From: an uncultured Ignavibacteria bacterium
GTDB lineage: Bacteria > Zixibacteria > MSB-5A5 > WJJR01
NCBI GenBank assembly: GCA_964440935.1
Contig: CAYTTY010000014.1
Location: 12,311 to 76,310 of the forward strand
Length of the DNA: 64,000 nt
Direction of reading: 5' to 3'
Shown here: one piece after another, positions 9,459-62,752 of the stretch
Layout: every line of letters begins with the position of its first letter
How positions within the stretch are numbered: the stretch's first letter is position 1
Made by a program: the position numbers and the translations under genes
The notes under the pieces: model-generated
The model's input: only the letters and a program-made list of their open reading frames with translations
Told to the model about the DNA's origin: nothing
Database searches by the model: none

Positions 9459-9724
9459 CGAGCCTTTCCTCCCGGACCCCGTGGTCCGACTGTAGTGCGG
9501 TGCGATTCAATATATCACCGTGCACCATCATCCGATCTGATTATACGCCGTTCGGGCTGCGGTGTTTTACGATCTGGGCCGGATGGGGTGCGATTTCACG
9601 TGTCCCTCAAAGAGTCTAGTTGATTGTTTGGCAGTGGTTTACCGGGCAGGGGGCGCTGGTCGCTGTGCCTGGCAGGGGCGCGGTGAGAAAGTCGAAAGGA
9701 TGTGCTCAATTGAGCTGAGCGACT

Positions 9725-9985
9725 AATGCGATTGTCAGAAGAACTGTCCGATTCCAGCGTGCCCGTCATGCGCCCGCGCGTGACGGCTATCTCCCGTACC
9801 GACAAGGCGTCACCCGAGGGCGGGTGACGCCACGTATGAAGGGACCGTCGCATGGCCGTCCCGCTTGCTGTGAGCATGGTCGAACGGGCCATGCTGCACG
9901 GGCACTTCGGCTTACTCAGTGTAAACGAGGCGCCCGTGCTCCATCGCCCGCTCAATCGGAGGACAATTCTGGCAATCGCTATAAC
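9725..9985. repeat. Family-A TIR element, copy A1 (about 260 bp)
   Basis: Left end is GCGATTGTCAGAAGAACTGTCCGA and right end is AATTCTGGCAATCGCTATA, which are inverted. The interior shares the hairpin GCATGGCCGTCCCGCTTGC.GTGAGCATGGTCGAACGGGCCATGC with copy A2, and the GTCACGCG/GTCACCCG hairpins with A8. Confidence 0.8.
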
Positions 9986-17067: not shown

Positions 17068-17202
17068 TCTACCGGTATTCTCCTGACAGATTCAAGGGGT
17101 GGGATGGGGGGCGAGAGACTGGAATTGGCCAACGTCGATGCGTATAATCAGACCAGGTTGAGGAGATGATGATGACGTAGTAGACGATAAGCAGCCGGGA
17201 CA

Positions 17203-17292
17203 ACCCCGGGGGGTGCCCCTAACGCCACAGGCGGGGGCTGAGACAACACCCCTAGAACCTGATCTGGATCACGCCAGCGTAGGGAACGGGTT
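17203..17292 (+). promoter_or_regulatory. TPP (THI-box) riboswitch aptamer
   Basis: GGGGUGCCC...GGGGCUGAGA..ACACCC..GAACCUGAUCUGGAUCACGCCAGCGUAGGGAA matches the conserved THI-element core (CUGAGA, ACCUGAUCUGGAU.A.GCCAGCG.AGGGAA). It lies about 90 nt upstream of the first gene of the thiamine cluster. Confidence 0.9.
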
Positions 17293-17383
17293 TTTGAGAT
17301 ACACAGCACGTTTTGAAGGGCCGTTCCGCAGTGGTGGAGCGGTCCGTTGCTTTTGGGATGAGGTCCCGTGAAAGGAGTCAACG

Positions 17384-18469: not shown

Positions 18470-18606
18470 GTGTGTGTCGCGGGCGTGTGCGGCATGACCG
18501 TCGACACATCCGCCCTACGGTTTGAGCCCCCCATTCGGCTGACATTGTGACGGTTGCGGGCGTGTTCAACACGCCCCTACCGATATTATCGAATGGATAA
18601 AATCGT

Positions 18607-21026: not shown

Positions 21027-21228
21027 GGTGGCCCGGACCTTGGGGTGTGTTGAAAATGGTGATTCAATGCTGAGCACATGCAGTAGGGGCGTATTGAATA
21101 CGCCCTCTGTGCGTAATCGGTATGGGAACGGGGCGTACTCAGTACGCCCCTACAGATGATCGTTTTCTCGATGCGTGATGTGATCAGTTCCTGGACTTGT
21201 TCAACACACCTTAAGGTCCGGGGCACCC
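21027..21228. repeat. Family-B TIR element, copy B1, located inside the thi operon
   Basis: GGCCCGGACCTTGGGGTGTGTTGAAAA ... TTGTTCAACACACCTTAAGGTCCGGGGC form the inverted termini. The interior carries the hairpins GGGGCGTATTGAATACGCCC and GGGGCGTACTCAGTACGCCCC. Confidence 0.8.
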
Positions 21229-21277
21229 GACACCCGAAATGGCAATGACACGAGTTTGACGCAACAAAGGATGGATC

Positions 21278-22105
21278 ATGAATAGAGCACTCACGATTGC
21301 CGGGTCGGATTGCAGCGGGGGCGCCGGCATTCAGGCGGATTTGAAAACATTTATGGCGTTCGGCGTGTATGGCATGTCGGCGATTACATCGGTGGTGGCA
21401 GAAAACACGGTCGGTGTGCAACAAGTGCATGATCTGCCGGTTGATCTGATTGTCGAACAGATCAAGAGTTGTGTATCCGATATCGGTACCGATGCCGTGA
21501 AGATCGGCATGCTGTCGAATCCGGCGATTGTCGAGGCGGTGGCGGCGGCGATTGACGAGCACCAACTGCCGAATGTCGTGGTCGATCCGGTGATGGTTGC
21601 CAAGAGCGGCGATGCATTACTGAACGAAGAAGCGCGCACGACAATCACAGAGAAGCTGCTGCCGAAGGCGTTTGTCATCACGCCCAACAAGCACGAAGCG
21701 GAAACGCTGCTGGACCGCAAGCTGTGGACATTGGAAGACATGAAGATCGCGGCGAAGGAGTTGGCCGAGTTGGGTTGCCAATGGGTGGTGGTGAAGGGCG
21801 GACACATGACCGACGAATCACAGGCGATCGACGTCGTGTACGACGGCCAGTTCGTGCACACGCTGCCGGCGCCGTTTATCGATACCCAAAACACGCACGG
21901 TACCGGCTGCACGTTTTCCTCGGCGATCGCGGCGTCGCTGGCCAAAGGTGTTCCTCCGTTGGAAGCGATCGGACAGGCAAAGGGGTACATCACCCGCGCC
22001 ATCAAGGAAAGCGTCTCCCTGGGCAAGGGCCACGGCCCGACGAATCATCTGACCGGTGTGGAGAGTGAGTGGTTTGTCGTGCCGCAGGATGTGCGGAAAG
22101 GGTGA
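21278..22105 (+). CDS. thiD: Hydroxymethylpyrimidine/phosphomethylpyrimidine kinase ThiD
   Basis: LTIAGSDCSGGAGIQADLKTF...VKIGML...GTGCTFSSAIA is the canonical ThiD sequence. Confidence 0.95.
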   Translation: MNRALTIAGSDCSGGAGIQADLKTFMAFGVYGMSAITSVVAENTVGVQQVHDLPVDLIVEQIKSCVSDIGTDAVKIGMLSNPAIVEAVAAAIDEHQLPNVVVDPVMVAKSGDALLNEEARTTITEKLLPKAFVITPNKHEAETLLDRKLWTLEDMKIAAKELAELGCQWVVVKGGHMTDESQAIDVVYDGQFVHTLPAPFIDTQNTHGTGCTFSSAIAASLAKGVPPLEAIGQAKGYITRAIKESVSLGKGHGPTNHLTGVESEWFVVPQDVRKG

Positions 22106-22124
22106 TCGGTCGCTCTTGGGTTGC

Positions 22125-22262
22125 ACTGTAGGGGTGTATTGCATACGCCCCCTGTGCGTCACCGCAACCGAGAGAGGGCGTACTCAGAGCGCCGTTTGGA
22201 GGTAGTCTTGTCGATTTACAAGATGATGGTGTCTCAGATTTTTTCAACACACTCTCCAGCCA
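22125..22262. repeat. Partial family-B element (right half only)
   Basis: It contains GTAGGGGTGTATTGCATACGCCCCC and GGGCGTACTCAGAGCGCC hairpins and a single terminal TTTTTTCAACACAC. No matching left terminus is present. Confidence 0.6.
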
Positions 22263-24022: not shown

Positions 24023-24169
24023 GATGGATATCCTCCATCATGCCCGGTGGTGAGCGTTTCACCCCCTTCTATGGGTTGAGGCGATTGGTTGATAGAAGGT
24101 TTGCGCTCCACAGGCCACTTGTGGTGAGCGGAGTCGAACTCTCAGGCCCGTAAAACTCTCACACTTTAG

Positions 24170-24345
24170 AGTGATTGTCAGAATTATTTTCCGTTTGGAT
24201 TTCTATACTCTGTCATCCCCGTCGGCCGTGGCGGACCGAGACAGTGTCGTAATTGCTTGTTTACGAAGACAATGGATTCCCGCTTTCGCGGGAATGACAG
24301 CGAATGTTACCTTGGCAATCGGAAATCTATTCTGACAACCGCTCT
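24170..24345. mobile_element. Family-A TIR element, copy A3, carrying a nested family-D element (24210-24300)
   Basis: Ends are GTGATTGTCAGAATTATTTTCCGTTTGG ... GGAAATCTATTCTGACAACCGCT. The interior is CTGTCATCCCCG...CGGGAATGACAG. The right terminus overlaps the last codons and the stop of the truncated OMP gene. Confidence 0.75.
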
Positions 24346-24677
24346 AAACGAGGAAGTGACAGGTTGTTATCGATCGGCATGGGCAACGCCAGCGCCTGAA
24401 TATCATTGGAGAATCCGGGATCAGAGGAGAACGCATGACGCAGTGAACGGGAGTTGTGTGTGTACGACATGTGCATGCCGTTAAACGCCCACAGTCCGAC
24501 TGTCCCCGGGCTGTACAACGCCGGCATCGAGGAGGTCGATGCCCCACCGGCGTGTCCCATTCCCCATACGCGTGCGGTGGGGGATGTTTCGGTCATCCAT
24601 TGAGTGACGGACTGGGCGAAAGAGGACTTTGCCAGGAAGAGCAGGAGCAACCCTGCGAGAATGGCCGTCTTGCGCAT
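24327..24677 (-). pseudogene. Truncated fourth copy of the outer-membrane paralog family (N-terminal 116 codons)
   Basis: The signal peptide, the SPTARVWGMGHAGGAS motif and ...NDIQALAL align with the 24743-25846 paralog. The reading frame then runs into repeat A3 (...ERLSE*). About 30 nt of the 5' leader is nearly identical to that of the next paralog. Confidence 0.7.
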
Positions 24678-33255: not shown

Positions 33256-33367
33256 CACTGCGGCAGCGGCGACAAGCACCGCTTCGAAGTACGCCCAAAA
33301 ACATTTTGTCATCCCGAGTCCGCCGGAGGCGGAAGGGATCCGCTTCTTGCGCCCGACCCTGCCATTA

Positions 33368-33516
33368 TCGCGATTGTCAGAAGAACTGTCCGACTCACGA
33401 GACCGTAGCATGGCCGTCCCGCTTGCCGTGAGCATGGTCGAACGGGCCATGCCGTACGGGCGAGGCGCCCGTGCTACATCGCCCGGTCAATCGGAAAACA
33501 ATTCTGACAATCGCTC
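33368..33516. repeat. Family-A TIR element, copy A2 (short form, about 150 bp)
   Basis: Termini are GCGATTGTCAGAAGAACTGTCCGA ... AACAATTCTGACAATCGCT. The core hairpin is the same as in A1. Confidence 0.8.
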
Positions 33517-33575
33517 CTCATAGAGTGACTTGCATAATTCCCCTCCGATTCCCGATCCAACCCGAAAGATATACT

Positions 33576-37796: not shown

Positions 37797-38075
37797 CCCG
37801 GCAAATGGGCGTGTTGAAAAATCCTGAATTTCCAGCAATGCCATGCATCGACAAGAACAATACCCGGGGCGTATGGCATACGCCCTGCCCGCGTATGGGT
37901 TACGCGCAGAGGGCGTATTCAATACGCCCCTACAAAAGCACGTCATCTGCAATGACGCACGTTTTTCAACACACCCCTTGGTCCGGGTTTCACAGAAACA
38001 ATTCCCATGGCATCGAAAAGGTACTTTCTTAGAGGCGTATTTTGAGACCCGGTCCAAAGTCCGGGCCACCCAGGA
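37797..38075. repeat. Family-B element, copy B3, plus an adjacent hairpin module
   Basis: Termini are GGGCGTGTTGAAAAA ... GTTTTTCAACACACCCCTTGGTCCGGG. The interior has GGGGCGTATGGCATACGCCC and GGGCGTATTCAATACGCCCC hairpins, followed by GACCCGGTCCAAAGTCCGGGCC. Confidence 0.75.
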
Positions 38076-42770: not shown

Positions 42771-42952
42771 TATAGCAATTGTCAGAAGTATTTTCCGTTT
42801 CCATTGGGGTGCCACGCCCCTTCAGGCCCGTGGTTCCACATTCGGACGATCCCAGTTCACGGGCCTAAAGGCCCGTGGCACCCGAAAGTGAGTGTCAATG
42901 AAGCGGGGTCTCGCCTCTTATCAATCGGAACGGAATTATGACAATCGCTCTA
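42771..42952. mobile_element. Family-A TIR element, copy A4 (the empty reference for the nested insertion in A5)
   Basis: Termini are TATAGCAATTGTCAGAAGTATTTTCCGTTTCC ... GGAACGGAATTATGACAATCGCTCTA. The interior hairpins are CCACG.CCCTTCAGGCCCGTGG and CACGGGCCTAAAGGCCCGTG. Confidence 0.8.
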
Positions 42953-43310: not shown

Positions 43311-43458
43311 AGGGGGGGCGTTTCCAATTAGGGTCTGTGTGGATGTGAACGGCCTTGTTCCAAGTTGTTGGTGAGTTGTGCGTGGCCCTGATGAGAAAAG
43401 CACTCATCAGGGCCACGTTCCGTTGAAACGGTTCGGGGGAGTTCGTGCACTGTCCTCC

Positions 43459-43510
43459 ACACCCGGCTGAAGCCGGGTGTCAAAGGGCATGAAGCCCGCT
43501 GAAGCGGGCT
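43459..43510. repeat. Family-F two-hairpin unit, copy 3
   Basis: CACCCGGCTGAAGCCGGGTG-tcaaagggcatga-AGCCCGCTGAAGCGGGCT. It is flanked by GGCCCTGATG...CATCAGGGCC-type hairpins at 43382-43416 and 43586-43615. Confidence 0.75.
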
Positions 43511-43627
43511 GGCGATGCCAATACGTGATTTGCAGAGACTTCAATTCAAACGTCTCGTGGCCATCTGAATGTGCGTTACGCAAGCCCTGATGGATAAAGC
43601 CCCATCGGGGCCACTTTTTTGTGTGGT

Positions 43628-43740
43628 GTCTGTGGTGTCACCCGCCCTCGGGTGACGCTTTGCCGGTCAGGAAGATGGCCGTCACGCGAGGGCGCGTGAC
43701 GGCACGCTGGAATCACACAGCGATTCTGACAACTGCTATA
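43628..43740. repeat. Family-A half element, copy A8 (one terminus only)
   Basis: The reverse complement aligns with the left half of A1 (GTCAGAA...GATTCCAGCGTGCC.GTCA.GCGCCC.CGCGTGACGGC...GCGTCACCCGAGGGCGGGTGAC). The terminus ATTCTGACAACTGCTATA ends 6 nt before the ABC permease stop. Confidence 0.7.
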
Positions 43741-43746
43741 GGATAT

Positions 43747-47133: not shown

Positions 47134-48714
47134 ATGAAAAAGATTCTGCTACTCACACTGCTCGTCTTCTCGATTGGCCTTGTTGGCTGCAGCGACGATG
47201 ACGACAACCCGATCAGCATGACGAACATGGCCCAGGTGCGCGTGGCGCACTTGTCACCGGATGCTCCCAATGTGGATGTCCGGGTCAATGGTTCGCGCGT
47301 GCTACAGGATGTGCCGTTCCAGGCTGTCAGCGACTACCTCGATTTGGAAGCCGGTTCGGTCAACATTCAAGTGACTCCCGCCGGGGCGAGTGCTCCGATC
47401 GTGATTGACGCCACTGTGACGCTCAATGCGAACACGGCGTACACGGTTGCGGCGACGGGCCTGCTGAATTCCAACGATTTGTCCCCGATCGTTCTCGTTG
47501 ATGATCGCACGCCGCAGTCCGGCACAGCCCAGGTGCGTTTTGTGCACACATCGCCTGATGCGCCGGCGGTGGATGTAACGGTGTTGAACGGACCGACCCT
47601 GTTCAACAACGTGGCCTTCCGTCAGGCAGCCGACTACCTGTCGGTCAATGGTGGTACTTACAATCTGGGTGTTTCGATCGCCGCGTCCGGTACTCAGGTA
47701 CTGACTGTTAATGGTCAGACGCTGCAGGACAATACCAATTACACGATCTTTGCCATCGGTTTGGCCGGTAACGGTTCGTTGGCGGCCCTGCCGGTGGTTG
47801 ATGCATCAGTGAGTGGCTCCGCGAAGCCCGGTGTGGCGCGTGGACCGGAAGGCAAACTGCCGATCTTTCCACTGGCCCAGAAGGCTGGGTTGACGACGCT
47901 GGCGACGGCGGTGGAAGCGGCGGGTCTGCAGAAGACGTTGACGGTTGACGGTCCATTCACCGTGTTCGCTCCGACCAATGAAGCGTTTGCGGCTCTGGAT
48001 CCGGCGACGCTCGACTTCCTGCTCAACAATCCGGATGAGCTGACCAAGATCCTGCTGTACCACGTGGTTGCCGGTAAGGTGACCGCCGACCAGGTCGTGA
48101 ATCTGACCTCGGCAACAACCGTAAATGGAGCCGATGTTTCGATCACGGTCAATGGCAGCGATGTGATGGTCAATGATGCCGATGTCATCCAGACCGATGT
48201 GCTGGCGAAGAACGGTGTCGTTCACGTGATCAACAAGGTGCTGATACCACCGTCAGCATTAAACAGCTCTGCGGCCAAGCCCGCTATGGCTCAGGGGCCT
48301 GACGGCAAACTGCCGATCTTTCCACTGGCCCAGAAGGCTGGCTTGACGACGCTGGCGACGGCGGTGGAAGTGGCGGGTCTGCAGAAGACGTTGACGGTTG
48401 ACGGTCCATTCACCGTGTTCGCTCCGACCAATGAAGCGTTTGCGGCTCTGGATCCGGCGACGCTCGACTTCCTGCTCAACAATCCGGATGAGCTGACCAA
48501 GATCCTGCTGTACCACGTGGTTGCCGGTAAGGTGACCGCCGACCAGGTCGTGAATCTGACCTCGGCAACAACCGTAAATGGAGCCGATGTTTCGATCACG
48601 GTCAATGGCAGCGATGTGATGGTCAATGATGCCGATGTCATCCAGACCGATGTGATGGCGAAGAACGGTGTCGTTCACGTGATCAACAAGGTGCTCATTC
48701 CACCACAATCGTAG
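47134..48714 (+). CDS. Lipoprotein with two DUF4397 domains and two fasciclin (FAS1) domains
   Basis: The lipobox is LVFSIGLVGC. VRVAHLSPDAPNVDV and VRFVHTSPDAPAVDV mark the DUF4397 domains. Two copies of ...FTVFAPTNEAFAALD...LLYHVVAGK...NGVVHVINKVLIPP mark the FAS1 domains. Confidence 0.88.
   Translation: MKKILLLTLLVFSIGLVGCSDDDDNPISMTNMAQVRVAHLSPDAPNVDVRVNGSRVLQDVPFQAVSDYLDLEAGSVNIQVTPAGASAPIVIDATVTLNANTAYTVAATGLLNSNDLSPIVLVDDRTPQSGTAQVRFVHTSPDAPAVDVTVLNGPTLFNNVAFRQAADYLSVNGGTYNLGVSIAASGTQVLTVNGQTLQDNTNYTIFAIGLAGNGSLAALPVVDASVSGSAKPGVARGPEGKLPIFPLAQKAGLTTLATAVEAAGLQKTLTVDGPFTVFAPTNEAFAALDPATLDFLLNNPDELTKILLYHVVAGKVTADQVVNLTSATTVNGADVSITVNGSDVMVNDADVIQTDVLAKNGVVHVINKVLIPPSALNSSAAKPAMAQGPDGKLPIFPLAQKAGLTTLATAVEVAGLQKTLTVDGPFTVFAPTNEAFAALDPATLDFLLNNPDELTKILLYHVVAGKVTADQVVNLTSATTVNGADVSITVNGSDVMVNDADVIQTDVMAKNGVVHVINKVLIPPQS
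47851..48704. repeat. Direct tandem duplication, period 453 bp, nearly identical (FAS1-domain coding)
   Basis: 47851-48251 and 48304-48704 differ at only a handful of positions by eye (e.g. GCTGGGTTG/GCTGGCTTG, GAAGCGGCG/GAAGTGGCG, GTGCTGGCG/GTGATGGCG). Confidence 0.9.
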
Positions 48715-49684: not shown

Positions 49685-50024
49685 TATAGAGCGATGGTCA
49701 GAAGTATTTTCCGTTTCCATTGGGGTGCCACGGGCCTTCAGGGGGGTGTTGAAAAACCTGCTGACTAACATCACCTCAGACTGGGGAGGGCGAGGCTCCC
49801 GCCGAGCCGCCGCGTGGAACATGCCGTTGCGGCTCGCCGGGAGGCTCGCCCTCCCGAAGGCTCTGATTCTCGGGGGTTTTTCAACACGGGCCTTCAGGCC
49901 CGTGGTTCCACATTCGGACGATCCCAGTTCACGGGGCTAAAGGCCCGTGGCACCCGAAAGTGAGTGTCAATGAAGCGGGGTCTCGCCTCTTCTCAATCGG
50001 AACGGAATTCTGACAATCGCTATA
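49685..50024. mobile_element. Family-A TIR element, copy A5, carrying a nested family-B element (about 49737-49890)
   Basis: It has the same termini and interior as A4, plus about 150 extra bp bounded by GGTGTTGAAAAAC/GTTTTTCAACAC. GGGCCTTCAGG occurs on both sides of the insert but only once in A4. The right terminus ...CGCTATA supplies the TAG stop of the oxidoreductase gene. Confidence 0.85.
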
Positions 50025-51255: not shown

Positions 51256-51654
51256 GTGCGATCAATAGGATGTATTATCGTCGTGGGAATCACGGCCCTG
51301 TTGTTTGTGGCTTATGCCAATGCAGACAACAGCGTCGCCCAATGTGGAAGTTTGAAAGGCGAGATGAAGAGGAAGGTCGAGGGTAGGGCCGAAAGGGAGA
51401 CCGACACGGCGATCGACGATGCAGTCGATGAGGGTTTCGACAAGGCCACCGACAGTCAGGGTGATGACACGTACAATCAGGAATTGAGTCAGAAACGGGC
51501 CGCGGTGGTGAACGCGCACCTCTGCAACAAGTACGGCATCGCTCCGGATCGGCTCGATACCACGCGCTTGGGCGAAAGCAAGCCTGTCGACTCGAACGAT
51601 ACGCCCGAGGGCCGGACAGAATAACCGTCGGGTGGAATTGGTGATGCTGGGTTA
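51256..51654 (+). pseudogene. Decayed OmpA-family gene (half an OmpA_C domain with a terminal frameshift)
   Basis: ...TDSQGDDTYNQELSQKRAAVVNAHL...GIAPDRLDTTRLGESKPVDSNDTPEGR matches the second half of an OmpA_C domain. The expected ..QNNRRVELV ending is present only in another frame (up to TAG 51652-51654). The first half of the domain is missing. Confidence 0.6.
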
Positions 51655-51659
51655 GAACT

Positions 51660-51996
51660 GAATGTCAGAATTCCGTTCCGTTTGAGAAAGCGCGACGGTG
51701 GGTTTGCTTTGCACGAACGCTGGGGCGCCACGGGCCTTGAGGGGGAGCGTTGAAGAAGGCGCTACATTGTTGAGAACATGCATTTGCAGGGGAGGGTTGT
51801 TTACACTGAGCGAAGCCGAAGTGAATACGCCCCTTTCGCGTAAACCGTTGCGGGTGCGGGCGTACTCAGTACGCCCCTACGAATGATTGTCTCGTCAACA
51901 TGCGTTCGGACTGCAACTCAGGCCTTGTCAACACACCCCCTTGAGGCCTGTGCCACGCTCGTACAAACGGACAATACTTATGACAACCGCTATAGA
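51660..51996. mobile_element. Family-A element, copy A6, with a nested family-B element that contains a family-C fragment
   Basis: The left terminus is degenerate (AATGTCAGAATTCCGTTCCG) and the right terminus is CTTATGACAACCGCTATAG. The B-type ends are GCCACGGGCCTTGAGGGGGAGCGTTGAAGAA / CTTGTCAACACACCCCCTTGAGGCC. The interior GTTTACACTGAGCGAAGCCGAAGTGAATACGCCC matches family C. Confidence 0.7.
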
Positions 51997-53325: not shown

Positions 53326-53433
53326 GTGATTTTCGTTCAGCGATTTCATCCACCACCGGGAGTGCCATTTCGCGATAGTGAGGGCATACGCAGTACGCCC
53401 CTCCGTGTGAACGCTCTACGATTGAATTACAGA

Positions 53434-55935: not shown

Positions 55936-56068
55936 TCTCCTGACAACTCGTTGATAATAAACGGGTTCCCGCAAGAGCGGGGGCCCGGTTGTTTGTTCGG
56001 GAACAGTTGTCTCCGGGGAGCAGTTGTCACACATTAAATGCGAAGCTCTATTCCGGAGAGGAGACGTT

Positions 56069-56842
56069 ATGCGGTGGGATCAGTTAATGCGTGGAGTGTT
56101 TACGATGGTGATGGTGTTGGTTGTCATCGGGTGGGCGGCAACAGCATCGGCGGATACGACGGCGGTCGATACAGTGGCCGATCCGCTGGAGCCGTTGCAG
56201 CCGCAGCTTGATGCTCGTAAGGCAAGCTTCATGGAACGTGCGCCACAAGAAACCATCGATCTGTATGAAGGTGCGATCGATGATCTGGGTGAATCGGGCA
56301 TTCTGGATCGCGCTCTCAATGTAGGAGATACGGTCCCGGAGTTCGCGCTCCCGAGTGCCACCGGCGATACGGTGACACTCGCCTCTTTGATCGAGGACGG
56401 CCCGGTCGTGGTCACGTGGTACCGCGGCGGGTGGTGACCCTACTGCAATGCCACGCTGGTAGCGTGGAAGGATGCCGTGCCGTTGGTGGAGAAAGCCGGA
56501 GCGCAACTCGTGGCCATCAGTCCCGAGCTACCGGACAATTCTCTGACGATGAAAGAGAAACATGAGTTACCGTTCACTGTACTGAGTGATCCCGACAATC
56601 GGGTAGCACGTGAATTCAATATCGTCTACACCCTGCCGGAGGGTGTTAAGACGTCATTTAGCAACTTCTTTTCGCTCTCCGAGTACTACGGAAACGAAAG
56701 CGGCGAACTTCCCCTTGCGGTGACCTACATCATCGATGAGAATCGCGTGATTCGGTATGCGTTCGTGAATGCCGATTACAAGAAGCGAGCGGAGCCAGCG
56801 GAGGTGATTGCGGAGTTGGAGAAGATGGGGAGTGGCGATTGA
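56069..56842 (+). CDS. Peroxiredoxin-like (AhpC/TSA, PRX_like2-type) thiol oxidoreductase with in-frame UGA at 56435-56437, a candidate selenocysteine (UxxC)
   Basis: Two track ORFs (56024-56437 and 56477-56842) are in the same frame and are separated only by TGA. Read-through gives VVTWYRGGW-U-PYCN, exactly where family members carry WCPYC. A stem-loop follows the UGA. The start at 56069 has a signal peptide and a GGAGAGGAG RBS. Confidence 0.7.
56445..56475 (+). promoter_or_regulatory. Candidate bacterial SECIS stem-loop
   Basis: GCA-aug-CCACGC-UGGUA-GCGUGG-aagga-UGC. The apical loop contains GGU and lies about 20-24 nt downstream of the UGA. Confidence 0.45.
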
Positions 56843-56869
56843 TGCGTTCTGACTATTCGGTCGAAGTTT

Positions 56870-56914
56870 CCCACCCTACCAGTTCTCGACTTCGTGGAGA
56901 ACTGGTAGGGTGGG
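56870..56914. terminator. 18-bp perfect hairpin between convergent genes (bidirectional terminator candidate)
   Basis: CCCACCCTACCAGTTCTC-gacttcgtg-GAGAACTGGTAGGGTGGG, preceded by TTT on the + strand. Confidence 0.5.
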
Positions 56915-56942
56915 GCACCCCGCATGGATCTTCATAAACTCA

Positions 56943-60917: not shown

Positions 60918-61140
60918 TGGAAAACCGTTGATGGTCATCAATGATCTACAGAGAGAGATTGGCATCCGATGATTGTCGCGCCTGGTGACAGCGACCACCC
61001 AGTGAACCGAATACAAGGTAACGTGCTCACTTTGGGGTCGGGGCCTGTTGTTTACACTGAACGAAGCCGAAGTGAATACGCCCTTTCACCGCTGCGGGTT
61101 ACGTGCCGTGGGCGTCTGCCATACGCCGCTACGATTGCTT
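60918..61140. repeat. Family-C element, copy C1 (about 220 bp)
   Basis: It aligns by eye across its full length, with high but imperfect identity, to the reverse complement of 62405-62620 (...ATGGTCATCAA.GATC.ACA.AGAGAGATTGGC...GTTTACACTGA.CGAAGCCGAAGTGAATACGCCCTTTCACCGC.GCGGGTT.CGTGCCGTGGGCGT...). Confidence 0.8.
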
Positions 61141-61162
61141 GTGTTCGTAAATTCGACTTCGG

Positions 61163-61951
61163 TTAAATCAACCCACTGCCGAGGCCTGCGGCGATCAGTA
61201 CCAAAAGTACTCCGGTTAAGGTCTGCACGCGGCTGATCGTGATCTTGTGCAGGAACCGTTTGCCGATCAGGACACCGGTGAAAGCGGCGATGATTCCGGT
61301 CAGAATGAGTGGCCATTGATTTCCGGCGAATGGACCAAGTGCTCCGCCGAGGAAGAACATCACGGCATAGATCGTGATGCGGGCCAGATCGACCAAAAAC
61401 CCGATGGCGGCATTGGTCCCCACAAACGCGGTCGCGGGAATGCCTACTTTGGCCAGAAATGCTGAGCGGAGTGCCCCCTGATGACCGGAGAGGCCGCCAA
61501 AGAAGCCTGACAATACACCGCCGAATGAGAGATAGCGTTGATCGATGGTGAACTCACGAAGGTGCGGAAGGAGTTCGAAGAACGCGAAGGCGAGCATCAG
61601 GACAGCCATGATCACCTTGAGCGGAGTGATGACGGCCGTGTGAGGACCCAATGAGTATTGTGCCCATTGACCGAGTTGCGATACATAGCCCAGCGTGGCC
61701 GCTCCGACAAATGCGGCCAGAATCGCGGGGACGCCAAAGCGCCAGACAATTCCCCGATCAGCATACTGTCCGACCACGAGGACCTTGAAGAGACTGTTCG
61801 CACCGTGCACAACGGCGGTTGATGCGACAGCAATGTCCACCGGCAGGAATATCGCAAAGACCGGCATCAGTAATGTGCCGAGACCGAAGCCGGAGTACAG
61901 CGTCAGTCCGGAAACCAGCAGTGCAGCGATGGCGATGAGGAGAAAGTCCAT
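61163..61951 (-). CDS. Sulfite exporter TauE/SafE family membrane protein
   Basis: 262 aa, about 8 TM segments, Gly-rich repeated halves (..GGLSG.QGALRSAFL..). Confidence 0.85.
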   Translation of the reverse strand: MDFLLIAIAALLVSGLTLYSGFGLGTLLMPVFAIFLPVDIAVASTAVVHGANSLFKVLVVGQYADRGIVWRFGVPAILAAFVGAATLGYVSQLGQWAQYSLGPHTAVITPLKVIMAVLMLAFAFFELLPHLREFTIDQRYLSFGGVLSGFFGGLSGHQGALRSAFLAKVGIPATAFVGTNAAIGFLVDLARITIYAVMFFLGGALGPFAGNQWPLILTGIIAAFTGVLIGKRFLHKITISRVQTLTGVLLVLIAAGLGSGLI

Positions 61952-62048
61952 AAAATCGACCCAGAGACCGGTGCGTGTGCTCTATATACTGACTGTCACA
62001 CCATGGGTCGAGTGTAAATGCCGCAGGGCAAGTACGGGACTGTTCTGT

Positions 62049-62715
62049 TATAGCGATTGTCGGATGTCCTGTCCGATTGAGAAGAAGTGAGGTTTGGTCT
62101 ACTTGCATATTCACGTTCGGGTGCCACGGGGCTTTAGGGGCGTGTTGAAATACCCAGAAGGTCCTCGCGTAGGTGCGGCTCTTAGCCGCACCGCTCCGGC
62201 TAAGAGCCGCACCTACACGAGGTTATGATTGTCTCATGCAGTTACATCATCTGGTCCGGAGTCAACACACGACTTTCTCAACAGGTCCCTTTAGGCCCGT
62301 GAATCGGGACCGTGTGAACGTGGAACCACGGGCCTAAAGGTCATCAACTATTCCACTGGACATCCCAGTTCCGCGAAGGTTGAGACCAGTTGGGTGTGCG
62401 TTACACCATCACTCGTAGCGGAGTGTTGCATACGCCCACGGCACGCAACCCGCGGCGGTGAAAGGGCGTATTCACTTCGGCTTCGCTCAGTGTAAACAAT
62501 AGGCCCCGACCCCAAAATGAGCACGTCATCTTCGCATTCGGCCGACTGGCTGGTCGCTGTCGCGATGCGCGAGAATCATGGGAGGCCAATCTCTCTATGT
62601 GGATCGTTGATGACCATAAGGCCCGTGGCCCGGGGATTGTGCCGACGCGGACACACGGGCCTGAAGCCCCGTGGTACCCCGATCCAAACGGACAAGAGTT
62701 CTGACAATCGCTCTA
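62049..62715. mobile_element. Composite family-A element, copy A7 (about 670 bp), containing a family-B element and inverted family-C copy C2 (62405-62620)
   Basis: The A termini are TATAGCGATTGTCGGATG ... GTTCTGACAATCGCTCTA. Internally, GCCACGGGGCTTTAGGGGCGTGTTGAAA...GAGTCAACACAC...CCCTTTAGGCCCGTG is B-like, and C2 follows. Confidence 0.75.
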
Positions 62716-62752
62716 AGATCCCGACGCTGTAACGCGCAAACCCCATCACGTC

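What the first reader, a model, noticed from the sequence alone, without database searches (positions are those of the whole stretch)
49685..50024. Filled-site versus empty-site pair shows one repeat family inserting into the hairpin loop of another
A4 (42771-42952) and A5 (49685-50024) are the same TIR element: CTATAGCGATTGTCAGAAGTATTTTCCGTTTCC at one end and its inverse at the other. A5 carries about 150 extra bp bounded by their own inverted termini, GGTGTTGAAAAAC...GTTTTTCAACAC (family B). The hairpin-loop sequence GGGCCTTCAGG occurs once in A4 but on both sides of the insert in A5. A similar CCTT.AGG flank occurs around the B-type inserts in A6 (CCTTGAGG) and around B1 (CCTTGGGG/CCTTAAGG), and a CTTTAGG flank occurs in A7. 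This looks like target-site duplication and hairpin-targeted insertion of a non-autonomous element. No transposase is present in the window apart from an IS110 tail.
Basis: seen in the sequence. Interest (0 to 1): 0.72.

Follow-up and report, generated by a model that had tools for sequence, protein, structure and literature searches.

The report
IS1182-type MITE inside a hairpin loop
A 152-bp non-autonomous transposon, whose ends match insertion sequences of the IS1182 family, sits exactly in the four-base loop of a small DNA hairpin inside another repeat; this fits the known tendency of IS1182-family elements to target hairpins, so it is a clean example, not a new kind of system.

Summary
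A4 and A5 are the same element, and A5 carries 156 extra bases at the hairpin CCACGGGCC-TTCA-GGCCCGTGG.

1. The insert (family B) has identifiable partners. Its termini (core GTGTTGAAAAAC) are those of IS1182-family insertion sequences such as ISCfr1. The same short element occurs in more than ten phyla.
2. The target-site duplication is most likely 4 bp, equal to the hairpin tetraloop (TTCA, TTGA, TTTA, GCAA, CGAA). The 8-11 bp repeat "CCTT.AGG" is then the 4-bp duplication plus G-rich element tips that mimic the stem-closing pairs. Of 112 relatives, 51 have an exact 4-bp direct repeat at the same offset, against 1.7% in the control. A trap-captured IS1182 member also makes 4-bp repeats.
3. 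The hairpin is an independent REP-like module nested in A, so the nesting has three layers.

Hairpin targeting by IS1182 members (IS1272) is published. Loop-only duplication was proposed there as one possible outcome. A related Zixibacteria contig lacks both A5 and A6 at the syntenic sites. No transposase lies in the window. Whether A4 was never occupied or lost its B remains open.

The parts
49685..50024 (+). A5: family-A element (ends TATAG(AG)CGATGGTCAGAAG... / ...TTCTGACAATCGCTATA) carrying the nested hairpins and B
   Evidence: (D3, D6, D8)
49728..49736 (+). left arm CCACGGGCC of the target hairpin (H2a)
   Evidence: the reconstructed empty site folds at -12.2 kcal/mol, z = -5.2
49737..49740 (+). 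TTCA, left copy of the 4-bp target-site duplication (the hairpin tetraloop)
49741..49892 (+). B element: 152-bp IS1182-type MITE. Left tip GGGGG, core repeat GTGTTGAAAAAC 49746-49757, interior long hairpin GGGAGGGCGAGGCTCCCGCCGAGCCGC...GCGGCTCGCCGGGAGGCTCGCCCTCCC, core repeat GTTTTTCAACAC 49876-49887, right tip GGGCC.
49893..49896 (+). TTCA, right copy of the target-site duplication
49897..49905 (+). right arm GGCCCGTGG of hairpin H2a
49930..49949 (+). second, unoccupied H2 hairpin of A5 (CACGGGGCTAAAGGCCCGTG), inverted relative to H2a
42771..42952 (+). A4: the same A subfamily without B. Hairpin H2a at 42812-42833 (CCACGCCCCTTCAGGCCCGTGG, two mismatches in the stem); H2b at 42858-42877.
21044..21210 (+). 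B1: B copy in the loop of hairpin CCCGGACC-TTAA-GGTCCGGG. Decayed duplication TTGG (21040-43) / TTAA (21211-14); tips GGT / ACC.
   Evidence: empty site -18.1 kcal/mol, z = -6.9
37807..37976 (+). B3: B copy with perfect core repeats. The right flank is the GGTCCGGG arm; the left flank has decayed and no duplication is recognisable.
22128..22251 (+). partial B: interior hairpins plus the right end TTTTTTCAACAC only, downstream of thiD
   Evidence: (D2, D10)
51741..51940 (+). B copy inside A6 (about 51651-51996). Tips GGGGGA / ACCCCC. TTGA duplicated at 51737-40 and 51941-44 in hairpin CCACGGGCC...GGCCTGTG.
62137..62289 (+). B copy inside A7 (62044-62717, inverted relative to A4). Tips GGGGC / GTCCC. 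TTTA duplicated at 62133-36 and 62290-93. It occupies the hairpin that corresponds to the empty H2b of A4.
   Evidence: (I8, I18)
62339..62615 (+). family C element (ends GGTCATCAACTATTCC / GGATCGTTGATGACC) in the loop of the other H2 hairpin of A7, flanked by TAAA / ATAA
   Evidence: (I1, I2)

Best explanation
B is a miniature, transposase-less derivative (MITE) of an IS1182-family insertion sequence. An IS1182-type DDE transposase encoded elsewhere, not in this window, would bind the conserved core GTGTTGAAAAAC in each terminal inverted repeat. It would cut a few bases outside the core and join the two ends to target DNA with a 4-bp stagger.

In this Zixibacteria lineage the target is the tip of a GC-rich hairpin (probably extruded as a cruciform or exposed on single-stranded DNA), so the 4-nt loop is what gets duplicated. 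In A5 this happened in hairpin H2a, a REP-like unit nested in a family-A element. The result is CCACGGGCC-TTCA-[B]-TTCA-GGCCCGTGG.

Shown: the identity of the termini, the 4-bp duplication, the loop position, and the recurrence. Inferred: supply of the transposase in trans, recognition of structure rather than sequence, and the order of events.
For: - Ends. Two plasmid IS elements whose transposases carry DUF772 + DDE_Tnp_1_6 + DDE_Tnp_1 domains have the same ends. ISCfr1, a Sulfitobacter IS1182 and a Clostridium IS1182 have (C/G)TGTTGAAAAA-type ends.
- Distribution. The pattern GTGTTGAAAAA-N112-142-TTTTTCAACAC gave at least 117 loci in more than ten phyla by record title, where about 1 is expected.
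- Duplication length. 51 of 112 of those elements have an exact 4-bp direct repeat 4 nt outside the core, against 1.7% in the control. Many are non-palindromic: GGCT, GGTC, TTAG, CTAA. ISCfr1 has GGCC|...|GGCC and the Sulfitobacter IS has GGCT|...|GGCT. ISPse1, an IS1182-family element captured in a trap plasmid, makes a 4-bp repeat (PMC3281130).
- Loop position. Eight of the nine complete copies in Zixibacteria-labelled DNA lie in a hairpin tetraloop that equals the 4-bp repeat, with the same tip length on both sides: A5, A6, A7 and B1 in the window, plus L026, L064, L107 and L117. B3 is the exception. The reconstructed empty sites of A5, A6, A7, B1, L064 and L107 fold as hairpins with a 4-nt loop.
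- Non-randomness. Such loops make up 22 of 64,000 positions.
- Literature. IS1272 (IS1182 family) inserts into hairpins (PMC4923244, PMC5678879). The second paper lists duplication of the loop alone as one possible outcome.
Against: - No IS1182 transposase is in the window or in the Zixibacteria loci fetched, so no partner was found in this lineage.
- In A5 the right tip is GGGCC, not the inverted-repeat-symmetric CCCCC. This gives a 14-nt direct repeat, longer than a 4-bp duplication predicts.
- No orthologous site with the hairpin but without B was found. The A4/A5 pair is paralogous.
- Across all phyla the hairpin signal at reconstructed targets is weak: spanning pairs 7.3 against 5.5, p = 0.002, with no difference in folding energy. 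Some lineages clearly use YTAR sites without a hairpin.
- IS1272 itself deletes the stem-loop and makes no duplication.
Confidence: 0.8

Rival explanations
1. One reading: the element duplicates 8-11 bp (CCTT.AGG or GGGCCTTCAGG) on insertion, as ISL3, IS1595, IS256 or IS4-type transposases do, and B begins only at GGTGTTG.
For: Exact 11-nt (in fact 14-nt) direct repeat in A5, 8-nt in A6, 7-nt in A7 and L064.
Against: - The repeat length would have to differ in every copy (6, 7, 8, 11).
- With an 11-bp duplication the two ends of B in A5 become asymmetric (3 nt against 0 nt outside the core).
- Family-wide the repeat is 4 bp.
- The extra matches are always C's to the left of the loop and G's to the right of it, as expected from G-run tips lying beside C-G closing pairs.
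Confidence: 0.1
2. Reversed polarity: A4 is not a never-occupied site. It is a copy that lost B by deletion between the CAC of the left arm (GCCAC|GGGCC) and the CAC at the right end of B (CAACAC|GCCCC), or it was gene-converted by a B junction.
For: The A4 hairpin reads CCAC-GCCCC-TTCA-GGCCCGTGG. Its two adjacent G-to-C changes weaken the stem (-5.2 against -12.2 kcal/mol). GCCCC is exactly the right tip predicted from the left tip GGGGC seen in A7. Conversely, the right tip of A5 has the sequence of an intact arm (GGGCC).
Against: The expectation was formed after seeing the data. Two substitutions could be chance. Other H2 hairpins, in the window and in metagenome contigs, are intact and unoccupied, so virgin sites clearly exist.
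Confidence: 0.3
3. The hairpin arms are simply the outer part of a long terminal inverted repeat of B. There is then no hairpin targeting, and 'empty' hairpins are solo remnants.
For: Arms are inverted repeats by nature. In Proteobacteria the flanks beyond the 4-bp repeat are also conserved (GTCCGCTTTG...CAAAGCGGAC).
Against: - The arms differ between B copies: CCACGGGCC, CCCGGACC, CCCCGGGC, CTTCCCGC.
- A non-palindromic direct repeat separates the arms from the element.
- H2 hairpins are common without B.
Confidence: 0.05
4. The region is a structured RNA or regulatory element whose nested stems are conserved for function, not mobile DNA.
For: Very stable nested hairpins in a position between convergent genes (TspO and an oxidase), where terminators are expected.
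Against: - No Rfam family matches in the window or in 15 related loci.
- The interiors of B copies cannot be aligned with each other while the ends are conserved.
- The ends match transposase-bearing IS elements.
- A syntenic relative lacks the whole block.
Confidence: 0.03

Closest known systems
IS1182 family insertion sequences (ISCfr1, ISPse1, IS1272) and their MITEs
   Same: Terminal inverted repeat core (C/G)TGTTGAAAAA(G/C)T; 4-bp direct repeat; and, for IS1272, insertion into hairpins and inverted-repeat structures.
   Different: B has no transposase. IS1272 replaces or truncates the stem-loop and leaves no duplication, whereas here the stem is kept and the tetraloop is duplicated. The tips (GGG..) and hosts (Zixibacteria) differ.
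IS1397 / ISKpn1 (IS3 family) insertion into the loop of REP/PU palindromes of enterobacteria (recalled from memory, not checked here)
   Same: A mobile element landing in the loop of an interspersed extragenic palindrome, with a short duplication.
   Different: Different transposase family and ends (TG...CA). Those are full-length IS elements, not MITEs.
IS110/IS1111-type elements that target REP sequences (IS621, ISPpu10; recalled from memory)
   Same: REP-like hairpins used as landing sites.
   Different: Those elements lack terminal inverted repeats of this kind and lack a 4-bp duplication. No IS110 gene was found in the window.
REPINs / BIMEs (REP doublets and mosaic intergenic elements)
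   Same: The target H2 hairpins occur as inverted doublets and as modules of mosaic intergenic repeats.
   Different: RAYT association was not tested. B itself is a repeat-ended DDE-type element, not a REP.

Membership tests
IS1182-family MITE | Terminal inverted repeats matching the ends of IS1182-family insertion sequences | tested here: met
   B core GTGTTGAAAAAC compared with ISCfr1 GATTCTGTTGAAAAAGTAGC, Sinorhizobium IS GATAGTGTTGAAAAAGTCAGG, Sulfitobacter GATTTCGTTGAAAAA and Clostridium GGGCGTGGTGAAAAACT. All of these flank DUF772 + DDE_Tnp_1_6 transposase genes.
IS1182-family MITE | 4-bp target-site duplication | tested here: met
   TTCA/TTCA (A5), TTGA/TTGA (A6), TTTA/TTTA (A7), at symmetric distance from the core. 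51 of 112 relatives have one, against 1.7% in the control. ISPse1 repeat = 4 bp (PMC3281130). A longer duplication in A5 cannot be excluded.
IS1182-family MITE | Small, no transposase gene, several copies per genome | tested here: met
   152-200 bp. Five complete copies plus one partial copy in 64 kb. tblastn with two IS1182 transposases finds nothing in the window.
IS1182-family MITE | A cognate autonomous IS1182 element in the same genome or lineage | not testable with these tools
None is present in the window or in the Zixibacteria loci L026, L064, L107, L117 and L247 (one search covered the first four).
IS1182-family MITE | Presence/absence polymorphism of B alone at an orthologous site | tested here: inconclusive
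   Only paralogous pairs exist for B: A4 against A5, and A4 H2b against A7. The syntenic contig L248 lacks the whole A5 and A6 blocks, not B alone.
IS1272-type hairpin-targeting transposition | The target is an inverted repeat or stem-loop | tested here: met
   Eight of nine complete Zixibacteria-lineage copies lie in hairpin tetraloops.
IS1272-type hairpin-targeting transposition | The stem-loop is removed or truncated and no duplication is made | tested here: not met
   Both arms are retained and the loop is duplicated. This corresponds to the alternative 'pathway c' in PMC5678879.
IS3-family REP-loop insertion (IS1397/ISKpn1) | IS3-type ends and transposase | tested here: not met
   The ends match IS1182 elements.
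REP/REPIN (for the target hairpin H2) | Short GC-rich palindrome, interspersed, often in inverted doublets | tested here: met
   Five H2 units in the window. Doublets in L130 and L200, without A or B.
REP/REPIN (for the target hairpin H2) | An associated RAYT (Y1) transposase flanked by the REP | not tested
   None was noticed in the window. The genome is not available.

The most novel reading that the evidence does not exclude
IS1182-family transposases may be structure-directed integrases across many phyla. They would join their ends across the tip of an extruded hairpin, so that the tetraloop becomes the 4-bp duplication. On this reading the loop-duplicating mode seen here is the common mode and the stem-loop replacement of IS1272 is a derived variant. 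That would make REP-like palindromes the main landing pads of a very widespread MITE family, and a general route to nested intergenic repeats.
Probability: 0.3. Interest if true: 0.5.

Novelty: new member of a known kind. Interest (0 to 1): 0.3.

Why it matters
The window gives an unusually clean natural record of three layers of nesting: a family-A element, then a REP-like hairpin, then an IS1182-type MITE. It also shows that in this lineage the IS1182-type machinery places its 4-bp staggered cut exactly across a hairpin tetraloop.

This supports, with sequence data, a transposition outcome that had only been drawn as a possibility for IS1272. It may also help explain why published accounts of IS1182-family insertions range from 4-bp repeats (ISPse1) to none (IS1272): annotators can count stem bases as part of the repeat. 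That last point is my inference.

The conserved 11-12 bp core found across more than ten phyla is a practical signature for annotating these MITEs, which are currently not in Rfam and are usually left unannotated. The case does not reveal a new kind of system.

Tried and rejected
- Rfam on the window and on 15 related loci: nothing for A, B or the hairpins.
- Full-text search for the terminal sequence: only unrelated primers.
- Pairs of B ends 0.3-4 kb apart, as candidate autonomous copies: the one in the window (21047-22250) encloses thiD, a housekeeping gene, and those in other loci were independent MITEs or chance sites.
- Metagenome scan with GGGTGCCACGNNNCTTNAGG: too loose. About 110 of 120 loci were chance hits in coding DNA, and only about 8 carried real H2 hairpins, all unoccupied.
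- BLAST of A4, of the family-C element and of A5's B against plasmids: no useful match.
- Exact look-up of the TspO protein: only a 1-kb Logan contig, identical to the window and ending inside A5.
- Family-wide test for hairpins at reconstructed targets: weak. Mismatched-partner and random 40-mer controls fold almost as well in these GC-rich genomes. I therefore claim hairpin-loop targeting firmly only for the Zixibacteria-lineage copies.
- Considered from memory and rejected on the end sequences and repeat length: IS5/IS903, IS256, ISL3, IS630 and Tn3-type MITEs.

Full report
**Observation.** A4 (42771-42952) and A5 (49685-50024) are the same element. They align over their whole length with a single 156-nt gap. 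Identity is 91% over the left 56 nt and 96% over the right 141 nt (families D8 and D5). The extra DNA in A5 lies at the hairpin CCACGGGCC-TTCA-GGCCCGTGG. GGGCCTTCAGG occurs at 49732-49742 and 49888-49898, and the direct repeat actually extends to 14 nt, CACGGGCCTTCAGG. The insert is bounded by GGTGTTGAAAAAC and its complement. This 13-mer, with up to 2 mismatches, occurs 9 times in the window against 1.24 expected.

**What B is.** About one is expected by chance (596 Gb x 31 spacings / 4^22). The record titles name more than ten phyla: Alpha-, Beta- and Gammaproteobacteria, Desulfobacterales, Acidobacteriota, Chloroflexota, Veillonellaceae/Selenomonadaceae, Bacteroidota/Ignavibacteria, Planctomycetes, Zixibacteria and others. 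Interiors are conserved only within a lineage, whereas the ends are conserved everywhere. That is the signature of a MITE family tied to one transposase family.

A BLAST of a Mesorhizobium copy against annotated plasmids led to two full-length elements with the same ends around a transposase gene:
- Paraburkholderia pBN1: ...CGATTCTGTTGAAAAAGTCG, a 471-aa transposase, then CGACTTTTTCAACAGAATCG.
- A Sinorhizobium element annotated 'IS1182 family transposase': GATAGTGTTGAAAAAGTCAGGCTTGAA ... TTCAAGCCTGACTTCTTCAACACTATC.

Both proteins carry DUF772 + DDE_Tnp_1_6 + DDE_Tnp_1. Named IS1182 members show the same ends: ISCfr1 (GATTCTGTTGAAAAAGTAGC), a Sulfitobacter IS1182 (GATTTCGTTGAAAAA) and a Clostridium IS1182 (GGGCGTGGTGAAAAACT). 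B is therefore an IS1182-family MITE. No IS1182 transposase is encoded in the window or in the loci held at that point (tblastn).

**Length of the duplication.** For 112 of the collected elements I looked for direct repeats at symmetric distances outside the core. Fifty-one have an exact 4-bp direct repeat starting 4 nt outside GTGTTG, against 1.7% when left and right flanks of different elements are paired. Many of these repeats are non-palindromic (GGCT, GGTC, GCCC, TTAG, CTAA), so they are true duplications. ISCfr1 is flanked by GGCC/GGCC and the Sulfitobacter IS by GGCT/GGCT. ISPse1, an IS1182-family element captured experimentally in a trap plasmid, is listed with a 4-bp direct repeat (PMC3281130).

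In the window lineage the 4 nt are the hairpin tetraloop, and the distance from core to loop is the same on both sides of each copy:

| Copy | Distance core to loop | Repeat (left/right) |
|---|---|---|
| B1 | 3 nt | TTGG/TTAA (decayed) |
| L026 | 4 nt | CGAA/CGAA |
| L064 | 4 nt | TTCA/TTCA |
| L107 | 4 nt | GCAA/GCAA |
| L117 | 4 nt | TTCA/TTCA |
| A5 | 5 nt | TTCA/TTCA |
| A7 | 5 nt | TTTA/TTTA |
| A6 | 6 nt | TTGA/TTGA |

The 'CC' to the left of the loop and the 'GG' to the right of it appear on both sides because the element tips are G-runs (GGGGG...CCCCC) placed next to C-G closing pairs of the stem.

A5 is the one copy where this is not fully satisfying. Its right tip is GGGCC instead of the symmetric CCCCC, which produces the 14-nt repeat. 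Possible causes are correction of the quasi-palindrome against the right arm, gene conversion from an unoccupied copy, or an unusual 9-bp stagger with loss of the tip. I cannot decide between them.

**Hairpin targeting.** For A5, A6, A7, B1, L064 and L107, removing B and one copy of the 4 nt restores a hairpin with a 4-nt loop. Examples: A5 -12.2 kcal/mol (z = -5.2), B1 -18.1 (z = -6.9), L064 -12.4, L107 -11.8. Only 22 of 64,000 window positions are tetraloops closed by 7 or more Watson-Crick pairs, and 108 are closed by 5 or more. All four complete, interpretable B copies in the window sit in such loops, as do four copies in other Zixibacteria-labelled contigs. The stems differ (CCACGGGCC, CCCGGACC, CCCCGGGC, CTTCCCGC), so structure rather than a shared sequence seems to be recognised.

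Across all phyla the signal is weak. Pairs spanning the site average 7.3 against 5.5 in random 40-mers (p = 0.002), with no difference in folding energy. Some lineages clearly use YTAR sites without a hairpin. In Proteobacteria the flanks beyond the repeat resemble a common palindrome (GTCCGCTTTG-NNNN-CAAAGCGGAC), which may be the same phenomenon.

**Nesting.** The target hairpin (H2) is not intrinsic to family A. H2 units occur singly or as inverted doublets in metagenome contigs without A ends or B. The structure is therefore A, then a REP-like H2 doublet, then B, then the interior hairpins of B. A7 is inverted relative to A4. Its B occupies the hairpin that is empty in A4 (H2b, 42858-42877), which gives a second paralogous empty/filled pair (I8 and I18). 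The other H2 hairpin of A7 holds a third element, family C (62339-62615, ends GGTCATCAAC...), flanked by TAAA/ATAA.

**Comparative evidence.** The oxidase next to A5 has 83% and 80% identical homologues, the first named 'candidate division Zixibacteria'. The 80% homologue lies on a syntenic contig (gene X, oxidase, TspO; L248). There the oxidase-TspO spacer is 49 bp instead of 595 bp, and the spacer between gene X and the oxidase is about 118 bp instead of about 1,018 bp. Both A5 and A6 are therefore absent. Conversely, the WJJR01 assembly has an A copy upstream of the oxidase that the window and L248 lack. The A-type blocks are thus lineage-specific insertions. A site carrying the hairpin but lacking only B was not found.

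**Polarity.** The A4 hairpin reads CCAC-GCCCC-TTCA-GGCCCGTGG. The two adjacent changes weaken the stem (-5.2 kcal/mol). GCCCC is what the right tip of a B with left tip GGGGC (as in A7) would be. A4 could therefore be a copy that lost B by deletion between CAC microhomologies, or one that was converted by a B junction. This idea came after seeing the data, and I give it about 0.3.

**Comparison with what is known.** IS1272 (IS1182 family) inserts into hairpins and terminators, with loss of part or all of the stem-loop and without duplication (PMC4923244, PMC5678879). Both papers cite the IS review of Siguier et al. 2015 for the statement that some IS1182 members target palindromes. PMC5678879 draws, as an alternative outcome, attack at the 5' ends of the loops that would duplicate the loop only. 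The window shows that outcome. The case is a new member of a known kind (an IS1182-type MITE in Zixibacteria) with a target geometry that differs from IS1272. No new kind of system is involved.

**Verdict.** The feature is real and well explained, and it is of modest interest (0.3).

Noticed in passing
window 62339-62615 and 60931-61144: A third repeat family (C; ends GGTCATCAAC(T/G)AT(T/C)CAC...) is inserted in an H2 hairpin loop inside A7, flanked by TAAA/ATAA. A second, inverted partial copy lies on the other side of a TauE/SafE exporter gene (61163-61951), so the gene is bracketed by 214-bp inverted repeats at 84-89% identity. No partner was found in plasmids.
   Followed up: partly
window 9719-9985, 24166-24348, 33361-33520, 42771-42952, 43451-43742, 49685-50024, 51651-51996, 62044-62717: Family A has conserved bipartite ends of about 35 bp (TATAGCGATTGTCAGAAnnnnnTGTCCGATTG) but different interiors in different copies. 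The flanks are compatible with a TA duplication. Its transposase family was not identified.
   Followed up: partly
window 42812-42833: The 'empty' hairpin of A4 has two adjacent stem mismatches (GCCCC instead of GGGCC). These match the predicted right tip of a B element, so this may be a footprint of a lost B.
   Followed up: partly
window 18554-18586, 21083-21168, 22128-22213, 37866-37948, 51813-51895, 53378-53410, 61106-61138: Another hairpin family (GGGGCGTAYTSARTACGCCCC, often in pairs) forms the interior of several B and C copies and also occurs alone. The same unit is inside a B copy of Zixibacteria MAG WJJR01 (L107).
   Followed up: no
L002-L118 (Proteobacteria loci): In Alpha-, Beta- and Gammaproteobacteria the IS1182-type MITEs are flanked, outside the 4-bp repeat, by halves of a widespread palindrome (GTCCGCTTTG-NNNN-CAAAGCGGAC). 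This suggests the same REP-centre targeting in those groups.
   Followed up: partly
window 17199-17303: A TPP riboswitch (Rfam RF00059, 71.7 bits) lies in a thiamine gene neighbourhood. thiD is at 21278-22105 and is flanked by B1 and a partial B.
   Followed up: no
window 47821-48120 and 48274-48573: A 300-nt direct repeat at 96% identity lies inside the fasciclin/DUF4397 gene (47134-48714). It is a recent internal domain duplication.
   Followed up: no
window 56024-56842: An AhpC/TSA peroxiredoxin is split into two ORFs (56024-56437 and 56477-56842), followed by a 44-nt inverted repeat at 56847-56937. This could be a frameshift, a pseudogene or an assembly error.
   Followed up: no
whole window: The source is probably a Zixibacteria genome: the best named homologues of the oxidase are 'candidate division Zixibacteria', and the same A+B architecture is present in MAG WJJR01.
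   Followed up: partly
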